Both the position numbers and the translations under genes were made by a program. From a virus, in UHGV virus genome UHGV-0042415: a stretch of 35,864 nucleotides of DNA. One strand, 5' to 3'. Every line of letters begins with the position of its first letter. Position 1 is the first letter of the stretch. Below the pieces are notes generated by a model that saw nothing but the letters and a program-made list of their open reading frames with translations, was not told the DNA's origin and made no database searches. Positions 50 to 35,049 of the stretch are shown here, piece after piece.

Positions 50-1051
50 TTACCCTCTATTGTCAAAAGGGTTCAATTCAACAGCAGCCTCTAAATGACC
101 TGGAGCAAAATGCGCATAACGCATAGTCATTTTTATATCGCTATGCCCCAGTATTTTTTGCAACACAAGAATATTTCCGCCCCGCATCATAAAATGACTG
201 GCAAACGTGTGACGTAGCACATGAGTTAATTGCCCATCAGGAAGCTCGATCTTCGCTCTCTTAATTGCAGCGTCAAAAGCCTCATAACATGGTGAAAATA
301 GCGCTCCTCGTTTTTTAGGAAGCATAGCCTGCAATTGAGGTGAAATCGGTACAGTGCGGTTCTTCTTTCCTTTAGTTTTGACAAATGTGATTCGACCGGG
401 CAGTACTTGAGATTGTTTTAATCCTTCTGCTTCACTCCACCGAGCACCAGTCGCAAGCCCAATACGAACAACAACCCCCAAATCTTTATTCCGTGACTCA
501 TCACACGCAATCAGAAGGCGTTCAATCTCATCTACATACAGAAACGCCAGTTCCTTTTCTTCCTCACGAAACTTGCGAATACCAGTCAGGGGGTTTTCAC
601 CAGACCACTCTCCAAGGCGCTTCAGTTCGGCAAAAACAGCATGTAGATATGACTGCTCACGATTAACAGTTGCTTCACTAAGTTTCTTCTTCCCCTTTGG
701 ATTCCATTCACCTGATAATCGCCGCTCCCTGTAGGTGGCAAACATATTTTTATCAAATTGAGAAGCAAACGGATCACCTAACCTAGAACAAATCGCCTCG
801 AGTTTAGCCCTTCGCTCTTCACCGGAAGACAGTGTTTTACCGTACATATCAAACCAGCGAGCAACCAACTCGGAAAGGTGGGGGCCAGAATCATCCTGAA
901 ACTCGCTCCCCAAATTACTATTCATTAAACGGCGCTCATAAGAGAGCGCCTCACCCTTAGTCGCAAACTGTTTACGAATACGCTTTCCCGATGCTCCATA
1001 CGGGTAACACTCGCAAAGCCATTTACCAGTAGGTAGTCTTCGAACACTCAT
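50..1051 (-). CDS. int: Tyrosine site-specific integrase (P2 Int-like)
   Basis: 333 aa; C-terminal catalytic region HVLRHTFASHFMMRGGNILVLQKILGHSDIKMTMRYAHF (HxxR...Y tyrosine recombinase signature); sits at the prophage edge downstream of the repressor on the same strand. Confidence 0.93.
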   Translation of the reverse strand: MSVRRLPTGKWLCECYPYGASGKRIRKQFATKGEALSYERRLMNSNLGSEFQDDSGPHLSELVARWFDMYGKTLSSGEERRAKLEAICSRLGDPFASQFDKNMFATYRERRLSGEWNPKGKKKLSEATVNREQSYLHAVFAELKRLGEWSGENPLTGIRKFREEEKELAFLYVDEIERLLIACDESRNKDLGVVVRIGLATGARWSEAEGLKQSQVLPGRITFVKTKGKKNRTVPISPQLQAMLPKKRGALFSPCYEAFDAAIKRAKIELPDGQLTHVLRHTFASHFMMRGGNILVLQKILGHSDIKMTMRYAHFAPGHLEAAVELNPFDNRG

Positions 1052-1056
1052 TCTAA

Positions 1057-1443
1057 TTAAGACTTAATCCATCCCATCATCAACATCAGAGATACCGCCG
1101 TATTAGAAACAGACTGATTTTGATATACTTTTCTATTCTTTTTTTTATCTGCGAAAGGCTCAAAGGCCATATCAAGTTGTTTAGTCAATTCCTCTGCCAA
1201 CAATTTGAGGTCATCCATATTTTTAACTTGTGTAGACAATTCTGGTGTAAGTCTTCCTTGATTATAAAGTACAGCTATAAAGTCAGCCGAGGTAGCCAAT
1301 TTGTTTTTATAAGATGCCTTTTGCCACTCAAGGGCGTTTGCCTTATGTAATGTTCCACCTTCATACCATTCAGAGGCATACCCATGAGATGCAAAAACAA
1401 ACAAGATATAAAAAAGGACTAATTTTAAATAATTACGCTGCAT
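1057..1443 (-). CDS. Exported protein of unknown function (cargo)
   Basis: 128 aa; N-terminal signal-peptide-like MQRNYLKLVLFYILFVFASHGYA; visibly AT-rich; 5 bp from int. Confidence 0.65.
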   Translation of the reverse strand: MQRNYLKLVLFYILFVFASHGYASEWYEGGTLHKANALEWQKASYKNKLATSADFIAVLYNQGRLTPELSTQVKNMDDLKLLAEELTKQLDMAFEPFADKKKNRKVYQNQSVSNTAVSLMLMMGWIKS

Positions 1444-1474
1444 ATCATATTTCCTTGCATGTTATTTAACGTAT

Positions 1475-2122
1475 TTACACAAAATAAATTAAAAATGTAA
1501 TCACCATACCCAAAATGAGTCCAACAATGAACACAATCAAAAATTCTTTAGTATATTCTGTTAATAGTTCACTAATGCAGTGTCTATTTTTAATATTGCC
1601 ATTGCTCTGAGATATATTTTTATTAGTCTGCTGATCTAACCACGACAATGCAGATTGCAACTGAGAACGAGTAAGATCGTTTAAACGGCCTGTACCGAAA
1701 TTGATATGGCAATATCGAAGAAGTTTTTGTCTAATTTCATTACTTTCACTGTTGCGAAGAAGGAGGCTTACAAGTAATTTACAGGCGTCATGATCCTTGT
1801 GTCGGTCAAGCATCGCATTGAGAAAGCTAATTGCGGTTGGATACTGATTCACCGTCATCTTATCGACACTATCAACACCGATTTCAGCATGAAGTTTACG
1901 CCAAACAACAAACGATTCTTCCTTGCTGGCATCAACAATCTTGTCAACCAACAACTTCAGTTGATGTCGCTGAGCCTTAACTAATGGGCGCTCATCAGGC
2001 CTACCAGAAGGGATTGCAATATTGACTGTATGCCGATCATCATATCGCTCTATCTGAATATTCTTTTCGTGGTAATCACGCCCAGCAACGCGATTGTCTG
2101 AACCGTTTGAGTTGACCGCCAT
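1475..2122 (-). CDS. Tail-anchored membrane protein of unknown function (cargo)
   Basis: 215 aa; single C-terminal hydrophobic segment EFLIVFIVGLILGMVITFLIYFV, remainder soluble; AT-rich; starts 18 bp after the repressor stop on the same strand. Confidence 0.7.
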   Translation of the reverse strand: MAVNSNGSDNRVAGRDYHEKNIQIERYDDRHTVNIAIPSGRPDERPLVKAQRHQLKLLVDKIVDASKEESFVVWRKLHAEIGVDSVDKMTVNQYPTAISFLNAMLDRHKDHDACKLLVSLLLRNSESNEIRQKLLRYCHINFGTGRLNDLTRSQLQSALSWLDQQTNKNISQSNGNIKNRHCISELLTEYTKEFLIVFIVGLILGMVITFLIYFV

Positions 2123-2140
2123 GTCACCTCCCTGCTAGAG

Positions 2141-2554
2141 CTAACCCTTAGTTTCGTTATAGTCACGACCAGCAATACGATGGCCCTTGCCAGAAGCTCT
2201 TATTGTACCTGGAGCCAAACTACCAGCGGTCAAGGCTGCCAAAGCCGCCGCCTTAACAGCCAAAGGTGCAGAGCGATATATTTTAATTAGCTCAATCTCA
2301 TCTTCAGTGGCATTAGGGATGCCATGTGCACGACTACCAGAAAGTATGTAATAGACATCTACTCCGCAGCGCCTTCCCAAGAGATTCAGCATAGCTGCAT
2401 CCGGTGTAGTCACCCCTCTTTCATACTTCCCCCAAGTCTTTGTAGAAACTTCAAAAATAGACGCCATATCATCCTGAGTCATGCCAGTTTTCTCTCGTTC
2501 CTCCCGTAATCGACGTCCAATAATGACACTTAATTCCTCTTTTTCTGTTGACAT
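2141..2554 (-). CDS. HTH (XRE/Cro-C1 type) immunity repressor
   Basis: 137 aa; N-terminal HTH region LSVIIGRRLREEREKTGMTQDDMASIFEVSTKTWGKYERG; divergent from the early operon; same orientation as int as in P2 C-int. Confidence 0.8.
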   Translation of the reverse strand: MSTEKEELSVIIGRRLREEREKTGMTQDDMASIFEVSTKTWGKYERGVTTPDAAMLNLLGRRCGVDVYYILSGSRAHGIPNATEDEIELIKIYRSAPLAVKAAALAALTAGSLAPGTIRASGKGHRIAGRDYNETKG

Positions 2555-2613
2555 AGGAAGTTTTGTTCCCTAAAGTAATTTCACGTGCAATTAGATGATC
2601 ACAATGTACCACT

Positions 2614-2820
2614 ATGAATCAAGTTAGTCACGACACCAAGTCACGCATTCCGCGTAATACCGCCACAGGTCCAAGACTGGCACTTAGGCTGTCCCTCGAG
2701 GAGCGAGCCATCATTGATGAAATGGCCGCCAAAGAACAACGCTCATCCTCTAACATGGCGCGCATGATCTTCCTTCGAGGCCTGGAGCTGACCCAGAAAG
2801 AACAAAACAAATCTTCCTGA
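2614..2820 (+). CDS. Putative ribbon-helix-helix (Arc/CopG-like) small regulator, Cro-like position
   Basis: 68 aa; RLALRLSLEERAIIDEMAAKEQRSSSNMARMIFLRGLE resembles an RHH beta-strand plus helices; first rightward ORF opposite the repressor; no clear Shine-Dalgarno, so start uncertain. Confidence 0.5.
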   Translation: MNQVSHDTKSRIPRNTATGPRLALRLSLEERAIIDEMAAKEQRSSSNMARMIFLRGLELTQKEQNKSS

Positions 2821-2836
2821 TCAGGAGGTTAGTGGG

Positions 2837-3040
2837 ATGTCAGGTATAACCATCAATATCAATGTGAATGCCCCCTATGTATCCCTGCAGAAATATGCAG
2901 AGATAACAGGTATCCCTCTTAATACATGCAAAAAGATGTTGGCTGACGGTCGAATTATTATCCGACCAAAACGCGCCAAAATGGAAAAGCCAGAAGTAAA
3001 CCTTGTGGCAATGCTGAAAGACGCTATCGCTAACAGTTAA
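2837..3040 (+). CDS. Cox/Apl-like small HTH DNA-binding protein (putative excisionase or early regulator)
   Basis: 67 aa; strong SD (caggagg) upstream; HTH-like YVSLQKYAEITGIPLNTCKKMLADGRI resembles P2 Cox/AlpA-type proteins. Confidence 0.6.
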   Translation: MSGITININVNAPYVSLQKYAEITGIPLNTCKKMLADGRIIIRPKRAKMEKPEVNLVAMLKDAIANS

Positions 3041-3046
3041 AACAAC

Positions 3047-3409
3047 ATGAGCATCGCTATGAATAGAAATGCCACCTCCTCACGTTCTAAATACCGCAAC
3101 GGGGCGGAACGCCATGCTAACCGTTTCGCTACCAGTGCATCACGCAGCAGCTCTCGCTACAGCCTGAGCGAAACACACGCAACACCGGATGGCCACGCTG
3201 TAAAACAAATCGGCGAGCATGCCTGGCTGATTGAGAAAGCTGGAATCGTGGTCCATAAATGCCCACGCAATCCGTTTACCGGAAACCGCATTTTTGCATT
3301 GAGCTGCGGCGACAATCAATTCGGGCTGGATTTCACATTATACGAAGCACTTCGTACGGTTGATCGTCTGCTTCGCGGGCAAAGTTTTATTAAACAGGCT
3401 GATTTATAA
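3047..3409 (+). CDS. Hypothetical early protein
   Basis: 120 aa ORF in the early operon; no recognisable domain. Confidence 0.55.
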   Translation: MSIAMNRNATSSRSKYRNGAERHANRFATSASRSSSRYSLSETHATPDGHAVKQIGEHAWLIEKAGIVVHKCPRNPFTGNRIFALSCGDNQFGLDFTLYEALRTVDRLLRGQSFIKQADL

Positions 3410-3419
3410 CAGGTGAGTT

Positions 3420-3707
3420 ATGACCAAAGAGCATACACAAAGTGTATTTATCCGTTTTATTGATTTTCGCGGTGAACTGTTATTACGCGCATCCGCTATT
3501 GATGGAGTGGCTCCGGCGGGTAAAAACGGAGCCGACGAAGCCACTTACGTTTATCTGAACGGCACGCGACTGCTTGTGGAACTTCCGTACCAGACCGTAC
3601 GAGAAATCATTAGTGGAGCTGAAAAGGCACGCCAGGCTAATGGCGATGAACCTTATATCGAAATTATTTGTATGGATTCAGAAGCAGAAATTCAGAAAGC
3701 AGATTAA
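3420..3707 (+). CDS. Hypothetical early protein
   Basis: 95 aa; SD aggtgag upstream; tightly packed in operon. Confidence 0.6.
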   Translation: MTKEHTQSVFIRFIDFRGELLLRASAIDGVAPAGKNGADEATYVYLNGTRLLVELPYQTVREIISGAEKARQANGDEPYIEIICMDSEAEIQKAD

Positions 3708-3718
3708 AGGGCGTTGCG

Positions 3719-3961
3719 ATGGGCAAAGAATATAAAACTCTCATTAACAAAGCACTTGAGCGTTTTTATTTTCGCTTAAGTGCATCAGGCGCTCATGCTG
3801 AACGTGCAGCCCGTGACTCATTGACCAGGGCAATCCGGAGTCTGTATGACGTGGCTTTTTACGCTGATGATCTGGATGCACTTAACGAACTTTCCGAGCT
3901 GATCTGTGCCGCAGAATGCGGGGAACATATTGAACCGTATAAGCTGGGGAATATTGCATGA
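3719..3961 (+). CDS. Hypothetical early protein
   Basis: About 80 aa from the internal ATG at 3719, which avoids overlap with the upstream gene. Confidence 0.5.
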   Translation: MGKEYKTLINKALERFYFRLSASGAHAERAARDSLTRAIRSLYDVAFYADDLDALNELSELICAAECGEHIEPYKLGNIA

Positions 3962-4071
3962 GTATATTTATCTCATGGCTTGTTCTGATTATTTCGGTGG
4001 CCTGCGCCATTGGGATTATGCGAATTATTCATTCAGTAAAAAAGATTGAACGCTTTTTCACTGGCGAATAA
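3958..4071 (+). CDS. Small hydrophobic peptide (37 aa), possible small membrane protein
   Basis: MSIFISWLVLIISVACAIGIMRIIHSVKKIERFFTGE; ATGA overlap with the upstream stop; below the ORF-track length cutoff. Confidence 0.35.
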   Translation: MSIFISWLVLIISVACAIGIMRIIHSVKKIERFFTGE

Positions 4072-4157
4072 CAGAGCAAATAAAACCACAGGTTAAATAA
4101 GAAAATGTAAAAACAATCCGCATTCGCGGAGGTATTCGCACACGCCAAGGAGGCGTA

Positions 4158-4361
4158 ATGGCAATTAAGCATTTTCCTGTCGTTCGTTTTACCTCCAGAG
4201 GACGTGAATACGAAGTCGACGAACGCCTGATTACCACAATCGACAAACACCGTTCAGAAAAGGATGCACATCACATCTATCTCACTGACGGCACTTACTT
4301 CTGCGCCACGAATGTGGTGCGGGTGAACCTTATCCGACAGGTACAGGAGTCACGCAGATGA
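4158..4361 (+). CDS. Hypothetical early protein
   Basis: 67 aa; strong SD (aaggagg) upstream. Confidence 0.6.
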   Translation: MAIKHFPVVRFTSRGREYEVDERLITTIDKHRSEKDAHHIYLTDGTYFCATNVVRVNLIRQVQESRR

Positions 4362-4603
4362 CCATTCTGGACTATATCGCCGCCAATCCGGGGTGTAGCG
4401 GTGGAGAAATCGCCGCAGCACTGAATACCCCAACCACAGCCATTAATGCGGAGTTACGCCGACTCTGGCGCAGCGGTTCAGTCATAAGAAAAGAGCGCAA
4501 AACAGGCGGTCGCTTTTCTTACCAGATAAACCCGATGCCGTTCGGGTGCGGCAATCCACTTACCAACATGTTTAACCAGCTACTGAAGGAGGCCAGAGCA
4601 TGA
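4358..4603 (+). CDS. Small putative winged-helix DNA-binding protein
   Basis: 81 aa; ILDYIAANPGCSGGEIAAALNTPTTAINAELRRL resembles a winged-HTH; overlapping start and stop with neighbours. Confidence 0.55.
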   Translation: MTILDYIAANPGCSGGEIAAALNTPTTAINAELRRLWRSGSVIRKERKTGGRFSYQINPMPFGCGNPLTNMFNQLLKEARA

Positions 4604-4899
4604 GCGCCATCAACCACCAGGAATTACGCGAACTGGCGATTGACCTGCAACGAATGGCAACGCATCAAAAATTACTGGCGTTTCGCGCAATGCTCTCGCC
4701 GTCTGCCGTGCTGGCACTGCTGGATGAGCTGGAGCACGCCAGAACCATGTCTCCAGCCATTCGCCTGGCGCTCCATCATGAAATCGCTGATTTCTGCGCT
4801 CCACTGGGTTCGCCTGGTGAACCAGAAACGCCGGAAGCAATGCAACGAGAGCTACTGCAACGCATCGACAAGGTTTTTGATTTCTTCCTTAACCAGTAA
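4600..4899 (+). CDS. Hypothetical early protein (Ead/Ea22-like features)
   Basis: 99 aa; helical, LLDELE-type motif; SD ggagg upstream. Confidence 0.55.
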   Translation: MSAINHQELRELAIDLQRMATHQKLLAFRAMLSPSAVLALLDELEHARTMSPAIRLALHHEIADFCAPLGSPGEPETPEAMQRELLQRIDKVFDFFLNQ

Positions 4900-4910
4900 A
4901 GGACCGCGAT

Positions 4911-5114
4911 ATGAACAAAAAGACCTGGTTTCGCGCATACATGTGGGCGCTGGTATGCGTCCTCGTTTCTCTCATTCTGTATGCAGGACTACTCCCCCGA
5001 ATGATTTCATCAGACAGCTCCTTCTTGGTATTGCTGGGCATTTTCATTGCCATGCTGTACCCGGCAGGCGTTGTTCGCCTTTTCAGTAAGTACATCAAGG
5101 AAATCAAACAATGA
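4911..5114 (+). CDS. Small two-TM membrane protein, likely partner of the downstream SPFH protein
   Basis: 67 aa; two hydrophobic segments (WALVCVLVSLILYAGLL, FLVLLGIFIAMLYPAGVV); stop overlaps the SPFH gene start (ATGA). Confidence 0.6.
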   Translation: MNKKTWFRAYMWALVCVLVSLILYAGLLPRMISSDSSFLVLLGIFIAMLYPAGVVRLFSKYIKEIKQ

Positions 5115-5941
5115 AGAAACTCAAACTCTTTCAGATTATCCCGCTTTTTGCCGCCATCCTGCTGGTTGGTTGCGATCGCGTTGAGCCAGGTAATGTGGGC
5201 ATCAAAGTCAACAAACTGGGCGACGACAAAGGCGTCGGTGAAGTGGTTGGCGTTGGCCGCTACTGGACAGGCTGGAATACAGAGGTTTACATCTTCCCGA
5301 CCTTCAAACAAATGAAGACCTACGATGAGCCGTTCAGCTTTCAGATGAGTGACGGCACAACCATCGGCTATCACATCGGTGTGGCCTACAAGGTTGATCC
5401 ATCCAAAGTTACTACAGTGTTTCAGACCTACCGCAAAGGCGTGGACGACATTACCGACACTGACCTGCGCCAGAAGATCGCCGATGCACTCAACCGACTG
5501 GCCAGCAAAATGACCACCGATAAATTCATCGACGGTGGCAAGTCTGAACTGCTGGATTCAGCACTTAAAGATATTCAGGAAGAGATGACCCCCATCGGTA
5601 TTCAGGTCATGAGCCTCTCTTATGTCGGTAAACCGGAATATCCGCCAACCGTTATCGACAGCATTAACGCCAAAGTCACGGCAAACCAGAAAACCCTGCA
5701 ACGCGAACAGGAAGTCAAGCAACGCGAAGCAGAAGCCAACATGTTGCGCGCAGAAGCTGCCGGACAGGCTGATGCCATTCGCACAAAAGCCCAGGCTGAA
5801 GCCGACGCCATTCGTTTACGCGGTGAAGCTCTGCGCCAGAATCCCGGCGTTATGGAGCTGGAAGCAATCAACAAATGGAACGGCACGCTGCCGCAATACA
5901 TGACCAGCAATACCGCTGTTCCGTTTGTTCCGGTGAAGTAA
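5111..5941 (+). CDS. SPFH/band-7 (prohibitin/HflC-like) domain lipoprotein
   Basis: 276 aa; lipoprotein signal with lipobox LLVGC; SPFH-like core followed by an A/E/Q-rich coiled-coil tail (QREQEVKQREAEANMLRAEAAGQADAIRTKAQAEADAIRLRGEAL). Confidence 0.7.
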   Translation: MKKLKLFQIIPLFAAILLVGCDRVEPGNVGIKVNKLGDDKGVGEVVGVGRYWTGWNTEVYIFPTFKQMKTYDEPFSFQMSDGTTIGYHIGVAYKVDPSKVTTVFQTYRKGVDDITDTDLRQKIADALNRLASKMTTDKFIDGGKSELLDSALKDIQEEMTPIGIQVMSLSYVGKPEYPPTVIDSINAKVTANQKTLQREQEVKQREAEANMLRAEAAGQADAIRTKAQAEADAIRLRGEALRQNPGVMELEAINKWNGTLPQYMTSNTAVPFVPVK

Positions 5942-5947
5942 TTAAAC

Positions 5948-5991
5948 CCGGCCAGTGAAAATCGCTGGCCGGAGCAGTATCAGGATTTTTT
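5948..5991 (+). terminator. Hairpin plus T-run downstream of the SPFH gene (putative terminator)
   Basis: ccggccag-tgaaaatcg-ctggccgg perfect 8 bp stem, T6 run 14 nt downstream. Confidence 0.4.
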
Positions 5992-6308
5992 AGTATGCCG
6001 TTCTCACAAAAAAACCGCTTGCCATGCCGCAATCAGTCAGGTTACATTTCCGCTGCACCTCATAAAACGGGTGCCGGGATTGGAACCCCGCAGACTAACA
6101 GAGCGCACAACCGCGCCAGCGGTTTTTTTGTGCGTACCGTATCGCCACGTCTTTTTCGCGTCAAAATTATGGTGGGGCGTACAGGGCCAGCATCAGCTGG
6201 GCCGGGTCCTCTGTTAGCCGGTAGTTCCAACCCTGTACGTCTCACCACCCCGAGCTTGGAACCTCTGGATGGTGAGTTTTCAAAACTGACTAACAGAGAG
6301 GCCACACC

Positions 6309-32283: not shown

Positions 32284-32440
32284 AGCTTCAGCCCCTTGTA
32301 TCCGTTAAATGATTAGGCAACAATCATCACCCACCACGCGCGTAATCTCACCCCTGCGCCATTCTCCCGCCACGGCGACAACAAAAAGCAGTAACCCCCT
32401 CCGCACGCACATGCGACCATGCCGCACAGGGAGGGAACAG

Positions 32441-33550
32441 ATGACCGACACCACCATGCAATTGCTCAGTCAGGGCACAGACCCTGTAAAAATGCCGGAT
32501 TTTGATATTCTCGCGGAGGGTAAAACGCTGTCAGGCGTGGCAGAGCGCCTGATGAGCCTGTCACTGACCGACAACCGTGGATTTGAGGCGGACCAGCTCA
32601 CCATCACGCTGGATGATGCGGATGGTCAGTTGCAGCTACCGCCACGGGGCGCGCGCCTGACGGTTCTCATTGGCTGGAAAGGAGAACCGCTGACAGAAAA
32701 AGGCACTTACATTGTTGATGAAATCGCTCACGAAGGACCGCCGGACAGGCTGACTGTTTCAGCCAGAAGCGCAGATTTTCGGGATGAATTTAACGTTAAA
32801 CGTGAGGTGTCCTGGCATGATGTGACCGTTGAGCGTGTGGTATCCGCCATCGCTCATCGGTACGGTCTGAAACCACAAATCAGCGAAATACTGATGGATA
32901 TTGAAATCGACCACGCCGACCAGACCGAAGAAAGCGACATGTCCTTCCTTACGCGCATGGCGGAAATGCTGGGCGCAATCACCACGGTAAAAAGCGGTAA
33001 TCTGTTATTCATCATGCCTGGCGGTGGCGTGAACGCACAGGGCCAGCCGTTGCCCTCATTCGCCATCACACGCAGCAGTGGCGATCGCCATCAGTTCCGC
33101 ATTGCTGACCGCGAAGCGTATACGGGGGTACGCGCTTACTGGCTTGATCTTAATTACGGGAAAAAGAAAAAAGTCAGCGTGAAACGCCGCAAACCGCCAA
33201 AACCCAAAAAGGAGAAAAGCAGCAGCCGTGAAGGTGATTATATGGAAGGCGCGGAAGGCAATGTGTTTGTGTTACGCAAGACTTATCAGAACGAGCAGGC
33301 AGCAAGACGCGCAGCGGCGGCGAAGTGGCAGCAGCTACAACGCGGAGCCGCATCATTCTCCATCACGCTGGCACGTGGACGAGCAGAACTCTACCCCGAA
33401 ATGCATGGCACGGTAACAGGATTTAAAAGCGAGATTGATAATCAGGACTGGATTATTGCAAAAGCCGAGCACACCATTGATAACAGTGGTTTTACCACAC
33501 AGCTTGAGCTTGAAGCAAAAATCCCGGAATGGATAGCAGAAACAGAGTGA
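32441..33550 (+). CDS. D: Tail protein D (P2 gpD-like)
   Basis: Start at the ATG at 32441 with SD gggaggg; LTDNRGFEADQLTITLDDADGQ...LPPRG...VDEI.H.GPPD...RSADF matches P2 gpD; lysine-rich internal linker. Confidence 0.9.
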   Translation: MTDTTMQLLSQGTDPVKMPDFDILAEGKTLSGVAERLMSLSLTDNRGFEADQLTITLDDADGQLQLPPRGARLTVLIGWKGEPLTEKGTYIVDEIAHEGPPDRLTVSARSADFRDEFNVKREVSWHDVTVERVVSAIAHRYGLKPQISEILMDIEIDHADQTEESDMSFLTRMAEMLGAITTVKSGNLLFIMPGGGVNAQGQPLPSFAITRSSGDRHQFRIADREAYTGVRAYWLDLNYGKKKKVSVKRRKPPKPKKEKSSSREGDYMEGAEGNVFVLRKTYQNEQAARRAAAAKWQQLQRGAASFSITLARGRAELYPEMHGTVTGFKSEIDNQDWIIAKAEHTIDNSGFTTQLELEAKIPEWIAETE

Positions 33551-33676: not shown

Positions 33677-34435
33677 ATGTTCAGTTTATTTTCGTTAACT
33701 GCCGGAGCAAATGTGCGCTGGCATGATTTACCTGGTAAAGGTATTCCTGTTGTTTTTATTCATGGGCTTGGCTGTTCCTCTTCTTATGAATATCCACGGG
33801 TTGTTGCAGATCCTGCATTTGGTGGACAACGAGCGATATTGATAGATCTCCCTGGATATGGATTCAGTGATAAGCCTAAAGGATTCGATTACAGCATATC
33901 CCATCAAGCTAAAGTTGTTATTGAAGTAGTAGAAACCTTAAATCTCTCACAGTTCCATATTTATGGTCACAGTATGGGGGGAAGTATTGCGATTGAAGTG
34001 GCCAGACAACTACATGAGAGAACAAGAAAGCTTGTGGTTTCTGAGCCTAATTTTCACTCTGGTGGAGGTACCTATAGCCGTAAGATAATAGAGAAACCAG
34101 AAGCAGAGTTTATTTCGCATATATATAATGAATTACTGGAGTGTGAAACATCCCCATGGAAAGGTGAACTCCAGAATGCAGCCCCATGGGCAATATGGCG
34201 AGGAGCCAAAAGTCTGGTTGATGGAACCACTCCATCATGGAGAGATATATTCCTTAATCTGCCCTGTTCACGTACACTAATTTTTGGCGAACAATCATTG
34301 CCAGACAATGATTTCCAGCAAATAAAAGAATCTGGAATATCTGTTGCAATAGTGCCAAACGCTGGACACTCCATGTCATGGGAAAATCCATCAGCACTGG
34401 CCTCAATTTTACATACAGAATTTTATAGAAAGTAA
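33677..34435 (+). CDS. Alpha/beta-hydrolase fold protein (putative esterase/lipase), AT-rich moron
   Basis: 252 aa; HG oxyanion motif (VVFIHGLG), nucleophile elbow GHSMGG, C-terminal His in AGHSMSW; markedly AT-rich with AT-rich flanks. Confidence 0.75.
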   Translation: MFSLFSLTAGANVRWHDLPGKGIPVVFIHGLGCSSSYEYPRVVADPAFGGQRAILIDLPGYGFSDKPKGFDYSISHQAKVVIEVVETLNLSQFHIYGHSMGGSIAIEVARQLHERTRKLVVSEPNFHSGGGTYSRKIIEKPEAEFISHIYNELLECETSPWKGELQNAAPWAIWRGAKSLVDGTTPSWRDIFLNLPCSRTLIFGEQSLPDNDFQQIKESGISVAIVPNAGHSMSWENPSALASILHTEFYRK

Positions 34436-34480
34436 AATAACCTATACATAGATATTGTTTCCACCAACATCATATTATCA

Positions 34481-34512
34481 AAGAGCAGGGCAAATTTACC
34501 TCCTGCTCTTTT
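34481..34512 (+). terminator. Hairpin terminator after the hydrolase gene
   Basis: aagagcagg-(11 nt loop)-cctgctctt followed by tt. Confidence 0.5.
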
Positions 34513-34788
34513 ACTCAAATTAGATGATTTTATAGCACACATTTTATGAAATATTTAAAATCTATAAACTTATAAGAACATTTTTTATCAAAACACATAC
34601 ATAATGAACAATCTCTTTTATCATAATTAGTAAATTATCACTTGATAATAAATGACATACTAAATATGCATCAGGGTTAATTTTTATTAATAGATAAACG
34701 TCCATGCCTCAATCTGACCTGATTGTTGATTGGCATATTCACTAGTACAATTTAAAATCACGATAGCAGCACATTAAGGGAGGTCGCT

Positions 34789-35049
34789 ATGTTTCGTTGT
34801 CCGCTTTGTGGCGCATCTGCCCGTATCCGCACCAGTCGTCCGGAAAATGATTCAAACACCGTGCGGCAAAAGTATTACCAGTGTAACAACCTGGAATGCG
34901 GCGTATGCTTCTCAACACTGGAAGCTTTCCATAAATTCACATCAAAACACGCCTCCGGCGTTCACTCTTCAGAAGGTATCCCGTGGCATGAGCTGCCAGC
35001 TTCACACAGGGGAAACAATCAGATGAGTTTGCCTTTACCTCAGAATTAA
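34789..35049 (+). CDS. ogr: Zinc-finger late gene transcriptional activator (Ogr/Delta family)
   Basis: 86 aa; MFRCPLCGASARIRTSR...YYQCNNLECGVCF matches the P2 Ogr Cys4 finger (MFHCPLCQHAAHARTSR...YHQCQNVNCSATF); SD aagggagg upstream. Confidence 0.9.
   Translation: MFRCPLCGASARIRTSRPENDSNTVRQKYYQCNNLECGVCFSTLEAFHKFTSKHASGVHSSEGIPWHELPASHRGNNQMSLPLPQN

What the first reader, a model, noticed from the sequence alone, without database searches (positions are those of the whole stretch)
1057..2140. Two AT-rich cargo genes inserted inside the repressor-int lysogeny operon: tail-anchored membrane protein plus exported protein
In P2 the repressor C and int are adjacent and co-transcribed. Here two extra same-strand genes sit between them with gaps of only 18, 31 and 5 bp, so they should be expressed in the lysogen from the repressor promoter. 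Both are visibly AT-richer than the flanking phage genes. One product has a single C-terminal TM anchor, the other a cleavable-looking signal peptide, and neither has a domain I recognise. This position and topology is what lysogen-expressed superinfection-exclusion or abortive-infection modules look like (compare lambda rexAB/sieB), so this is a prime candidate for an uncharacterised exclusion or defence pair.
Basis: partly seen in the sequence, partly recalled or inferred. Interest (0 to 1): 0.65.

Follow-up and report, generated by a model that had tools for sequence, protein, structure and literature searches.

The report
Repressor's membrane partner plus swappable cargo
Of the two genes between this prophage's repressor and integrase, one is a conserved membrane-anchored partner of the repressor that starts with the same short peptide the repressor ends with, which suggests an undescribed way of controlling phage dormancy, and the other is ordinary swappable cargo.

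Summary
The genes, gaps (18/31/5 bp) and topologies are real, but the two genes are not a pair and only one is cargo.

ORF215 (1475-2122) is a Pfam Flk_N, tail-anchored, cytoplasm-facing membrane protein. Its N-terminus (…SDNRVAGRDYHE…) repeats the C-terminal tail of the repressor just upstream (…KGHRIAGRDYNE…).
- The shared peptide is kept in Enterobacterales P2-like prophages, Pseudomonas phage B3, a Ralstonia phage and Burkholderia KS5.
- It diverges in step in both partners.
- In an IMG/VR sample, 32 of 32 prophages whose repressor has the tail carry the Flk_N gene. None of 19 with a sister repressor lacking the tail do.

ORF215 is therefore part of the immunity module. It most likely binds the repressor tail, or competes with it for a common binding site, at the inner membrane. 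That mechanism is inferred.

ORF128 (1057-1443), together with the last 50 codons of ORF215, forms an AT-rich cassette (GC 0.32).
- ORF128 is a small exported all-alpha protein.
- It is one of many alternative genes in the repressor–int slot, with or without Flk_N.
- Homologues also sit in a P4-like satellite and a Mu-like phage.
- Its function is unknown. It has no PADLOC hit and no confident fold match.

The defence-pair reading is not supported. The repressor/partner motif pairing appears undescribed.

The parts
2141..2554 (-). Immunity repressor, 137 aa. It has an N-terminal HTH_XRE domain (residues 12-66), an Ala-rich helix (…KAAALAALTAG…) and a C-terminal tail.
   Evidence: Pfam HTH_31/HTH_19/HTH_3. 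Of the 120 closest homologues, 115 end with …SG.GNR[VI]AGRD[YF][NH]E.KK.
2144..2209 (-). Repressor C-terminal tail GTIRASGKGHRIAGRDYNETKG, which carries the shared peptide motif.
   Evidence: Translation. Local alignment to the ORF215 N-terminus scores 53, against a shuffle mean of 17 and maximum of 43 in 5000 shuffles. These two copies are the only [AS]G[RQ]D[YFIL] matches in all six frames of the window.
1475..2122 (-). ORF215, a tail-anchored inner-membrane protein that faces the cytoplasm, of the Flk_N family. It is the conserved partner of the repressor.
   Evidence: Pfam PF27202 Flk_N by precomputed annotation. phrog_5825 E 7e-86. NCBIfam Flk partial match. Conserved synteny repressor -> Flk_N in more than 40 loci.
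2063..2116 (-). N-terminal motif of ORF215, VNSNGSDNRVAGRDYHEK, a copy of the repressor tail. The model gives it low confidence (pLDDT below 50 for residues 1-12 and 14-22).
   Evidence: Translation. The AF2 model has pLDDT below 50 for residues 1-12 and 14-22. The motif columns G7, N10, R11, D16 and E19 are invariant in 22 homologues. The two DNA copies differ at 6 of 27 bases, 4 of them synonymous.
1607..1990 (-). Helical Flk_N core of ORF215 (about residues 45-172), made of two similar three-helix modules.
1478..1543 (-). C-terminal transmembrane tail anchor of ORF215, FLIVFIVGLILGMVITFLIYFV.
   Evidence: Hydropathy and translation. Short hydrophobic C-termini are present in all family members.
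1057..1627 (-). AT-rich exchangeable cassette (GC 0.32). It comprises the linker and TM codons of ORF215 plus ORF128.
   Evidence: Composition. Megablast homology to other E. coli prophages stops near window position 1626-1629. The same cassette is 91% identical in L027, behind a 70%-identical Flk_N core, and there ORF128 is frameshifted.
1057..1443 (-). ORF128, an exported small all-alpha protein with a WYEGGTLH motif. It is variable cargo of the repressor-int slot.
   Evidence: phrog_23065 E 2e-41. 37 homologues with signal peptide, lipobox or zinc-ribbon+TM anchors. AF2 pLDDT 90. Present in 14 of 80 related IMG/VR loci, with or without Flk_N.
50..1051 (-). Tyrosine integrase, the last gene of the leftward string.
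   Evidence: Pfam Int_N plus Phage_integrase.
2614..3040 (+). Divergent early genes, shown for context: an Arc-like ORF (2614-2820) and a Cox-like ORF (2837-3040).
   Evidence: ORFs. The names are taken from the annotation of the homologous region of phage 520873.

Best explanation
The interval holds two unrelated things.

(1) ORF215 belongs to the phage's immunity module.
- It is a tail-anchored inner-membrane protein whose Flk_N helical domain and low-confidence (probably flexible) N-terminus face the cytoplasm.
- Its N-terminus carries the same ~17-residue peptide (S-G-x-x-N-R-V-A-G-R-D-Y-x-E) that ends the repressor encoded 18 bp upstream.
- Shown here: the peptide is conserved in both proteins, it diverges in concert in both, and the repressor tail and the membrane partner are strictly present together or absent together.
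- Inferred: the two proteins meet through this peptide. This could be by tail-to-tail pairing, or because both tails fit the same binding site on the partner or on a host factor such as a membrane protease.
- Either way, the membrane protein would hold, buffer or release part of the repressor pool at the inner membrane and so tune maintenance or induction of lysogeny.

(2) ORF128 is independent cargo.
- ORF128 plus the anchor-coding end of ORF215 is an AT-rich cassette that recombines in and out of the repressor-int slot.
- ORF128 is an exported small helical protein.
- Its role is unknown. A lysogenic-conversion or envelope-level exclusion function is the most likely guess.
For: Motif identity and significance.

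Conservation of the tail: 115 of 120 repressor homologues carry it.

The pairing is seen in many hosts and phage types:
- E. coli (4 types), Klebsiella, Erwinia, Kosakonia, Rosenbergiella, Izhakiella, Mixta, Enterobacter, Salmonella, Yersinia and Pectobacterium.
- A metagenomic relative with a 31%-identical Flk_N protein.
- Pseudomonas phage B3 ORF18/ORF20, where the partner is a two-TM protein without the Flk_N core.
- Ralstonia phage YO107_2, which has two membrane partners.
- Burkholderia phage KS5 gp11/gp12.

Concerted divergence: Ralstonia and Burkholderia tails score 42 and 39 against their own partner, 15-25 against foreign partners and 14-26 against foreign repressor tails.

Co-occurrence: tail and Flk_N together in 32 of 32 loci (14 distinct repressors). 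Sister repressors with a similar HTH domain but a different tail have Flk_N in 0 of 19 loci (13 distinct).

Selection acts on the peptide, not the DNA: 4 of the 6 base differences between the two copies are synonymous.

ORF128 as cargo.
Against: - No interaction was tested, and a two-chain structure prediction could not be run.
- The AF2 monomer model gives low confidence for the motif and does not dock it on the helical core.
- Co-inheritance of adjacent segments alone could produce the co-occurrence, although not the sequence mimicry.
- B3 ORF20 lacks the Flk_N core, so that core cannot be the universal receptor of the tail.
- Two loci (L072, L073) have an Flk_N gene behind a repressor whose tail similarity is not significant.
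- Placing an anti-repressor in the repressor's own operon is unusual for phages.
Confidence: 0.55

Rival explanations
1. Decoy or competitor for a host protease or adaptor. The repressor tail is a degradation or recognition tag, for example for FtsH, ClpXP or Lon. The membrane protein displays the same tag on a flexible cytoplasmic N-terminus. It therefore competes with the repressor, or targets it in trans, and sets repressor half-life without binding it directly.
For: - The same peptide sits on a low-confidence terminus in ORF215 and at the extreme C-terminus of the repressor.
- The membrane anchor plus the motif is the common denominator, even where the Flk_N core is missing in B3.
- In the P2-like phage 186, CII is degraded by the membrane proteases FtsH and RseP (PMC7708051, abstract listed).
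- From my own knowledge: the C-terminus of the Mu repressor controls ClpXP degradation, and lambda CIII protects CII by competing for FtsH.
Against: - The motif diverges in concert within lineages whose host proteases are highly conserved. That fits partner-partner recognition better than a host receptor.
- No known degron resembles it.
- Nothing was tested.
Confidence: 0.15
2. Templated (amyloid-like) signalling module used for exclusion or abortive infection. As in Bab/Agp and other BASS pairs, the motif shared by adjacent gene products passes an activated, aggregated state from one protein to the other. The signal could run from a disturbed repressor to a membrane-damaging ORF215, or from a membrane sensor to the repressor.
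For: - The layout is that of amyloid signalling motif pairs: C-terminus of one product, N-terminus of the neighbour's product, about 20 residues, rich in G, N and S with alternating hydrophobic residues.
- One partner is membrane-bound.
- The Ralstonia phage has the motif on three adjacent proteins.
Against: - The partners are not an NLR-type sensor and a Bell/HeLo-type effector.
- The motif has invariant charged residues (R, D, E).
- There is no PADLOC hit.
- Amyloid formation was not tested.
- AF2 predicts no confident beta structure for the motif.
Confidence: 0.12
3. Flk mimic. ORF215 acts like chromosomal Flk ('Fluke') on the flagellar type III export gate (FlhA-C), changing motility or FlgM secretion of the lysogen as a form of lysogenic conversion.
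For: - Homology of residues 41-172 to Flk residues 25-155 (NCBIfam E 1.5e-14; Pfam Flk_N).
- The same tail-anchored topology.
- Flk binds FlhA-C in a two-hybrid assay.
Against: - The score of 54 bits is far below the Flk equivalog cut-off of 353.
- ORF215 is only about 25-28% identical to Flk-length proteins of 336-408 aa (P0192, P0198, P0202), and the two of these read (P0192, P0198) lack the N-terminal motif.
- This reading does not explain the peptide shared with the repressor, or partners without the Flk_N core.
Confidence: 0.08
4. One reading: ORF215 and ORF128 together form a lysogen-expressed superinfection-exclusion or abortive-infection pair, comparable to RexAB.
For: - Same-strand tight packing downstream of the repressor.
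- One partner is in the membrane and the other is exported.
- The slot also holds defence-like cargo in relatives.
Against: - The two genes are inherited independently. ORF128 homologues occur without Flk_N in at least 11 loci, and once between the repressor and Flk_N. Flk_N occurs with other cargo or none.
- ORF128 is frameshifted in L027 while ORF215 is intact.
- There are no PADLOC hits.
Confidence: 0.05
5. The shared peptide is a functionless relic of a duplication or of a recombination junction between the two genes.
For: The two copies lie only 87 nt apart and in the same frame in the window.
Against: - The peptide is conserved across phages of Enterobacterales, Pseudomonas, Ralstonia and Burkholderia, while the surrounding sequence diverges to about 30% identity.
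- The copies differ at synonymous sites.
- Spacers in other loci are 9, 15, 17, 18 and 22 nt, so the frame is not conserved.
Confidence: 0.03

Closest known systems
Flk / RflH ('Fluke') of Salmonella and E. coli (Pfam Flk_N, NCBIfam PRK10715)
   Same: - The helical N-terminal domain is homologous.
- Both are cytoplasm-facing proteins held in the inner membrane by a C-terminal tail anchor.
- Flk works by binding a partner at the membrane, FlhA-C.
   Different: - ORF215 is 215 aa; Flk is 333 aa.
- Its score is far below the equivalog cut-off.
- It is prophage-encoded inside the repressor operon.
- It carries an N-terminal peptide copied from the repressor tail, which the two Flk-length proteins read here lack.
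- No link to flagella has been shown.
Phage anti-repressors and repressor-sequestering proteins (Tum of 186, Ant of P22, Qtip of VP882)
   Same: They would act on the immunity repressor by protein-protein contact. Qtip sequesters its repressor (bioRxiv 2019.12.16.877910, listed). There is a weak sequence match to phrog_245 'anti-repressor Ant' (E 1.7e-4).
   Different: - Known anti-repressors are soluble.
- They are expressed from separately controlled promoters only on an inducing signal.
- They do not mimic the repressor's own tail.
- ORF215 is membrane-anchored and sits in the repressor operon.
Amyloid signalling motif pairs of adjacent genes (BASS; Bab/Agp of E. coli prophage hotspots)
   Same: A short motif is shared by the C-terminus of one product and the N-terminus of the neighbouring gene's product, in prophage context, with one membrane-directed partner.
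   Different: - Here the partners are an HTH repressor and an Flk_N protein, not an NLR or TPR sensor and a Bell-type pore former.
- The motif contains invariant charged residues.
- No evidence of fibril formation exists.
immR-immA-int operon of ICEBs1 and phi105-like elements (from my own knowledge)
   Same: The gene order is the same: repressor, then a regulator of that repressor, then integrase, in one leftward operon.
   Different: ImmA is a soluble metalloprotease that cleaves ImmR. ORF215 has no protease motif and is membrane-anchored.
Accessory-gene ('moron') hotspots of P2-like phages and P4-like satellites
   Same: - ORF128 and its cassette behave like hotspot cargo: deviant GC and variable occupancy.
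- The same gene family turns up in a P4-like satellite beside an AbiJ-like gene and in a Mu-like phage near a TIR gene.
   Different: - To my knowledge the repressor-int slot is not one of the classical P2 hotspots (the old and tin/Z-fun positions).
- ORF128 matches no known defence family.

Membership tests
Pfam Flk_N (PF27202) domain family | Significant match to the Flk_N profile | tested here: met
   The identical-sequence cluster P0001 and all 120 listed homologues carry precomputed PF27202, named Flk_N. The local Pfam copy lacks this model, so it gave no hit.
Flk / RflH equivalog (NCBIfam PRK10715) | Full-length match above the curated cut-off (353 bits) | tested here: not met
   54 bits, E 1.5e-14, covering only profile positions 25-155 of 339.
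Flk / RflH equivalog (NCBIfam PRK10715) | Cytoplasmic protein with a single C-terminal membrane anchor | tested here: met
   The only hydrophobic segment is residues 194-215, at the C-terminus.
Flk / RflH equivalog (NCBIfam PRK10715) | Holds the flagellar T3SS in early-secretion mode and binds FlhA-C | not testable with these tools
   Needs genetics or a two-hybrid assay.
Two-gene superinfection-exclusion / Abi pair (RexAB-like) | The two genes are inherited and conserved together | tested here: not met
   ORF128 homologues occur in Flk_N-less prophages, and Flk_N genes occur with other cargo or none.
Two-gene superinfection-exclusion / Abi pair (RexAB-like) | Similarity to a described defence protein | tested here: not met
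   Neither protein hits any PADLOC model at E up to 1.
Two-gene superinfection-exclusion / Abi pair (RexAB-like) | Protection phenotype in the lysogen | not testable with these tools
   Needs a phage challenge experiment.
Amyloid signalling motif pair (BASS-type) | A motif of about 20 residues shared by the C-terminus of one product and the N-terminus of the adjacent gene's product | tested here: met
Amyloid signalling motif pair (BASS-type) | The partners are an NLR/STAND-type (or similar) sensor and a Bell/HeLo-type membrane effector | tested here: not met
   Here the partners are an HTH_XRE repressor and an Flk_N protein.
Amyloid signalling motif pair (BASS-type) | The motif forms amyloid or prion-like assemblies | not testable with these tools
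   AF2 gives only low-confidence structure for the motif. Fibril and foci assays are needed.
Phage anti-repressor | Binds and inactivates the cognate repressor | not testable with these tools
   This is inferred only from the shared, co-diverging peptide and strict co-occurrence.
Phage anti-repressor | Expressed from a separately controlled promoter, not together with the repressor | tested here: not met
   The gene lies 18 bp downstream of the repressor on the same strand, with its own Shine-Dalgarno sequence and no terminator-like site between them.
Phage accessory-gene (moron) cargo, applied to ORF128 | Variable presence at a fixed slot, deviant base composition, and occurrence in unrelated mobile elements | tested here: met
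HdeA / YmgD / Tai4-Rap1a-like periplasmic all-alpha fold, applied to ORF128 | Confident structural superposition | tested here: inconclusive

The most novel reading that the evidence does not exclude
The shared peptide is a self-templating (amyloid-like or beta-zipper) signalling element that couples the state of a membrane-anchored sensor to the phage repressor. Clustering of the membrane partners, for example on envelope damage or superinfection, would nucleate co-assembly of repressor tails. That would pull the repressor off the DNA and induce the prophage, or conversely would arm a membrane effector when the repressor is attacked. This would extend amyloid-type signal transduction from NLR/cell-death systems to the lysis-lysogeny switch of P2-like and B3-like phages.
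Probability: 0.12. Interest if true: 0.88.

Novelty: new variant of a known kind. Interest (0 to 1): 0.62.

Why it matters
P2-type prophages are very common in enterobacterial genomes. This lineage alone is present in 516 of 5426 complete E. coli genomes, including the O26 strains that make up most of the listed hits. How most of them are induced is poorly understood.

- **A testable handle.** A membrane-anchored protein that copies the repressor's own tail, and is inherited strictly with that tail, gives a concrete way to study how envelope or membrane state could feed into the lysogeny switch.
- **Generality.** The same arrangement in Pseudomonas B3, Ralstonia and Burkholderia phages suggests a general, overlooked module.
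- **Origin of Flk.** It also suggests where the poorly understood flagellar regulator Flk may come from.
- **Annotation rule.** In these prophages the first gene after the repressor is core, and only what lies between it and int is cargo. That slot is a place to look for new defence or conversion genes such as BRCT-WYL, TM-WYL and ORF128-type proteins.

Tried and rejected
- **Local Pfam scan.** It gave no real hit for either protein. The Flk_N model is newer than the local copy and was seen only through precomputed annotation.
- **PADLOC.** No hit.
- **Sequence search of solved structures.** Nothing significant for either family.
- **Foldseek against the PDB for ORF128.** Nothing. The afdb50 library was unavailable.
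- **The search for related loci with diverse Flk_N alignments.** It failed for lack of a conserved stretch. The close alignment returned only 9 genome loci.
- **A natural repressor-Flk_N fusion.** phrog_17822 hits both proteins. However, no fusion appeared among 85 Flk_N representatives or the 120 listed repressor homologues.
- **Stop-codon read-through joining the two in-frame genes.** Rejected. The window spacer has two in-frame TAG codons, and spacers elsewhere are 9, 15, 17, 18 or 22 nt.
- **A DNA-level repeat or recombination junction.** Rejected, because the copies differ mostly at synonymous sites.
- **Motif sharing in L072/L073.** Not significant (984 of 3000 shuffles reach the observed score), so it is not counted as support.
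- **Position-by-position covariation (Y/F, N/H) within Enterobacterales.** No clear pattern by eye, so none is claimed.
- **Literature searches.** Searches for Flk plus prophage, Xuanwuvirus, B3 ORF18/20, and membrane-anchored anti-repressor found no description of this pairing. The KS5 paper annotates gp12 only as 'membrane protein'.
Full report
**1. What is there**

The window is a P2-like prophage (Peduoviridae; the nearest deposited phage is Escherichia phage 520873, genus Xuanwuvirus). It sits next to yecA in mouse-derived E. coli strains.

On the minus strand lie four ORFs:
- an HTH_XRE repressor, 2141-2554;
- ORF215, 1475-2122;
- ORF128, 1057-1443;
- a tyrosine integrase, 50-1051.

They are separated by 18, 31 and 5 bp. 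Both middle genes have Shine-Dalgarno sequences. No terminator-like site lies in the gaps between the genes. ORF215 has one hydrophobic segment at its very C-terminus. ORF128 begins with a signal-peptide-like sequence.

**2. Composition**

- It runs from 1057 to 1627, with GC 0.32 against 0.52 for the whole window.
- It contains ORF128 and only the last 153 nt of ORF215, which encode the linker and anchor (GC 0.255).
- The first 495 nt of ORF215 have GC 0.43, like int (0.45) and the repressor (0.46).

Homology to other E. coli prophages stops at the same point, near window position 1626-1629. In another E. coli prophage (L027) the same cassette is 91% identical behind a Flk_N core that is only 70% identical. 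There ORF128 carries a frameshift. The cassette, including the anchor codons, is thus an exchangeable unit.

**3. ORF215 is not cargo**

Its family (phrog_5825; Pfam PF27202 Flk_N) has 187 database hits, and the 120 listed are proteins of about 180-230 aa from Enterobacterales.

Every locus examined has the order repressor, then Flk_N, then a variable region, then int, inside a P2-like prophage. This holds in four E. coli types, Klebsiella, Erwinia, Kosakonia, Rosenbergiella, Izhakiella, Mixta, Enterobacter, Salmonella, Yersinia and Pectobacterium.

The variable region differs between loci:
- It is empty in Yersinia.
- Elsewhere it holds DUF2511/YebY, BRCT-WYL, TM-WYL, a PDC-S48-like protein, or unknown secreted or membrane proteins.
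- Cargo can also sit between the repressor and Flk_N, as in Erwinia, Pectobacterium and L039.

**4. The key observation: a shared peptide**

The repressor ends …ASGKGHRIAGRDYNETKG, and ORF215 begins MAVNSNGSDNRVAGRDYHEK….
- The local alignment scores 53. In 5000 shuffles the mean is 17 and the maximum 43.
- These are the only two occurrences of the motif in all six frames of the window.
- The two DNA copies differ at 6 of 27 bases, 4 of them synonymous. What is conserved is the peptide, not the DNA.
- Among the 120 closest repressor homologues, 115 end with …[IV][NS]V[ST]G.GNR[VI]AGRD[YF][NH]E.KK, although their HTH domains diverge to about 45% identity.
- In the Flk_N proteins the motif residues G7, N10, R11, D16 and E19 are invariant.
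- The motif persists in relatives down to about 26% identity.

**5. The pairing extends beyond this lineage and beyond the Flk_N fold**

| Phage or locus | Repressor tail | Partner N-terminus | Partner type |
|---|---|---|---|
| Metagenomic locus L026 (31%-identical Flk_N) | …VSGSGNRTAGENYHEKE | …VEGDQNRVAGRDYLE | Flk_N |
| Pseudomonas phage B3 (transposable), ORF18/ORF20 | …ISVTGDGNRTAGRDFHERKE | …IEVTGSNNIVAGRDFIE | two-TM protein with no Flk_N core beyond the first helix |
| Ralstonia phage YO107_2 | …TGDIFGRDLV… | …VGDVAGRDII… and …VGQVAGRDII… | two successive membrane proteins |
| Burkholderia phage KS5, gp11/gp12 | …QNFEGASIGQQVTGDV… | …QKFDGEIGQVAGGDV… | 'membrane protein'; 11 of 5000 shuffles reach the observed score |

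A score matrix shows concerted divergence. The Ralstonia and Burkholderia repressor tails match their own partner (scores 42 and 39) far better than they match foreign partners (15-25) or even foreign repressor tails (14-26). The common denominators are the peptide and a membrane anchor.

**6. A natural control**

An IMG/VR scan with the repressor alignment returned 80 loci. Repressors bearing the tail are followed by an Flk_N gene in 32 of 32 evaluable loci, representing 14 distinct repressor sequences.

A sister group of repressors has a very similar HTH domain, 51-57% identical to the window's over residues 1-101. That is closer than some tail-bearing repressors. Its tail is different (…LNIQAVGDAFAQSKP…). 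These repressors have no Flk_N gene in 0 of 19 loci (13 distinct sequences), although int follows.

Two loci (L072, L073) have an Flk_N gene behind a divergent tail whose similarity is not significant. The unit of inheritance is therefore the repressor tail together with the Flk_N core, which recombines against different HTH domains on one side and different anchor-plus-cargo cassettes on the other.

**7. Structure of ORF215**

The AF2 model has a mean pLDDT of 76.5.
- Residues 1-12 and 14-22 have pLDDT below 50.
- A weak hairpin spans residues 22-36.
- A confident helical core covers about residues 45-172.
- It is followed by a variable linker and the TM helix.

The one characterised relative, Flk ('Fluke'), is a tail-anchored cytoplasmic inhibitor of the flagellar export switch. 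It interacts with FlhA-C in a two-hybrid assay (PMC13344023). The two Flk-length representatives whose sequences were read (P0192, P0198) lack the N-terminal motif.

**8. Mechanism**

Shown:
- the two proteins share a conserved peptide;
- the peptide diverges in concert in both;
- the repressor tail and the membrane partner are strictly present together or absent together;
- topology places the motif in the cytoplasm on a membrane-tethered protein.

Inferred:
- The peptides mediate contact between the two proteins, or make them rivals for one binding site.
- The membrane protein would then sequester, buffer or release repressor at the inner membrane and tune the lysogeny switch.

I rate this at 0.55. 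A protease-decoy version (0.15) and an amyloid-like templating version (0.12) are variants that differ in what recognises the peptide. The gene layout copies that of BASS motif pairs such as Bab/Agp. However, the partner domains differ and the motif carries invariant charges. A Flk-like action on flagellar export (0.08) does not explain the shared peptide.

**9. ORF128**

There are 37 homologues. They share an invariant WYEGGTLH…W…LAT..DF core behind a signal peptide, a lipobox, or a zinc-ribbon plus TM anchor. The domain is therefore extracytoplasmic.

- The AF2 model is confident (pLDDT 90) and all-alpha.
- Foldseek against the PDB finds nothing. The fold assignment is inconclusive.

Homologues occur in 14 of the 80 related IMG/VR loci. 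They appear in prophages with and without Flk_N, and once between the repressor and Flk_N. Others lie in a P4-like satellite beside an AbiJ-like gene and in a Mu-like phage near a TIR gene. ORF128 is mobile cargo and independent of ORF215. Its role is unknown; envelope-level exclusion, effector immunity or stress protection are possibilities.

**10. Verdict**

The interpretation as a cargo 'defence pair' is not supported as a pair, although the slot is a real accessory-gene hotspot. What the region does reveal is a widespread two-part immunity module that I could not find described. It is a repressor with a C-terminal tail plus a membrane-anchored partner displaying the same peptide. I file it as a new variant of repressor-modulating systems, with a minority chance of being something more unusual.

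Noticed in passing
window 33677-34435 (+), AT-rich block about 34200-34800: This is the second lowest-GC block of the window (GC 0.27-0.32). It overlaps a 252-aa ORF with a GHSMGG motif that resembles the active-site motif of alpha/beta-hydrolases. The ORF lies between a long late-gene ORF (32309-33550) and an 86-aa cysteine-rich ORF (34789-35049). It looks like another cargo slot.
   Followed up: no
L046-L071 and L077 (IMG/VR loci), repressor at 3001-3369: A sister lineage of P2-like prophages has repressors whose HTH domain is 51-57% identical to the window's. They end …LNIQAVGDAFAQSKP… instead of the AGRDY tail, and they have no Flk_N gene. The same cargo families (YebY, TM-WYL, a 180-aa secreted protein, ORF128-type) fill their repressor-int slot.
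   Followed up: partly
L029 (Pseudomonas phage B3) 2486-3489; L111 (Burkholderia phage KS5) 122-1407; L030 (Ralstonia phage YO107_2) about 2100-3681: In these phages the repressor tail and the N-terminus of the next membrane protein share lineage-specific versions of the same peptide. The Ralstonia phage has two such membrane proteins in a row. B3 ORF20 lacks the Flk_N core.
   Followed up: partly
L068 3962-4632: A 73-aa chimeric ORF joins an integrase N-terminal fragment to an Flk_N-type 'YPIF…' membrane anchor, directly upstream of an ORF128 homologue, in a prophage without Flk_N. This suggests that the anchor-plus-cargo cassette moved as one piece.
   Followed up: no
L001 (Escherichia phage 520873) 1039-3065: This is the only deposited phage genome in the INPHARED collection that carries this Flk_N gene. 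There the gene is broken into fragments of 55 and 115 aa, and the integrase is split in two. The record looks like a decaying prophage.
   Followed up: partly
L019 (Candidatus Symbiopectobacterium) 3605-6010: In this symbiont genome the repressor tail has decayed (AGNNFHENKK), the Flk_N gene has lost its N-terminal motif, and the integrase is fragmented. The whole module appears to be decaying.
   Followed up: no
L005 4647-5513, L014 4635-5513, L022 4594-5298, L025 5208-5852, L047 3973-4638: The repressor-int slot repeatedly holds BRCT-WYL or TM-anchored WYL-domain proteins. In L009 it holds a protein that partly matches the candidate defence model PDC-S48. These are possible uncharacterised defence or sensor genes.
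   Followed up: partly
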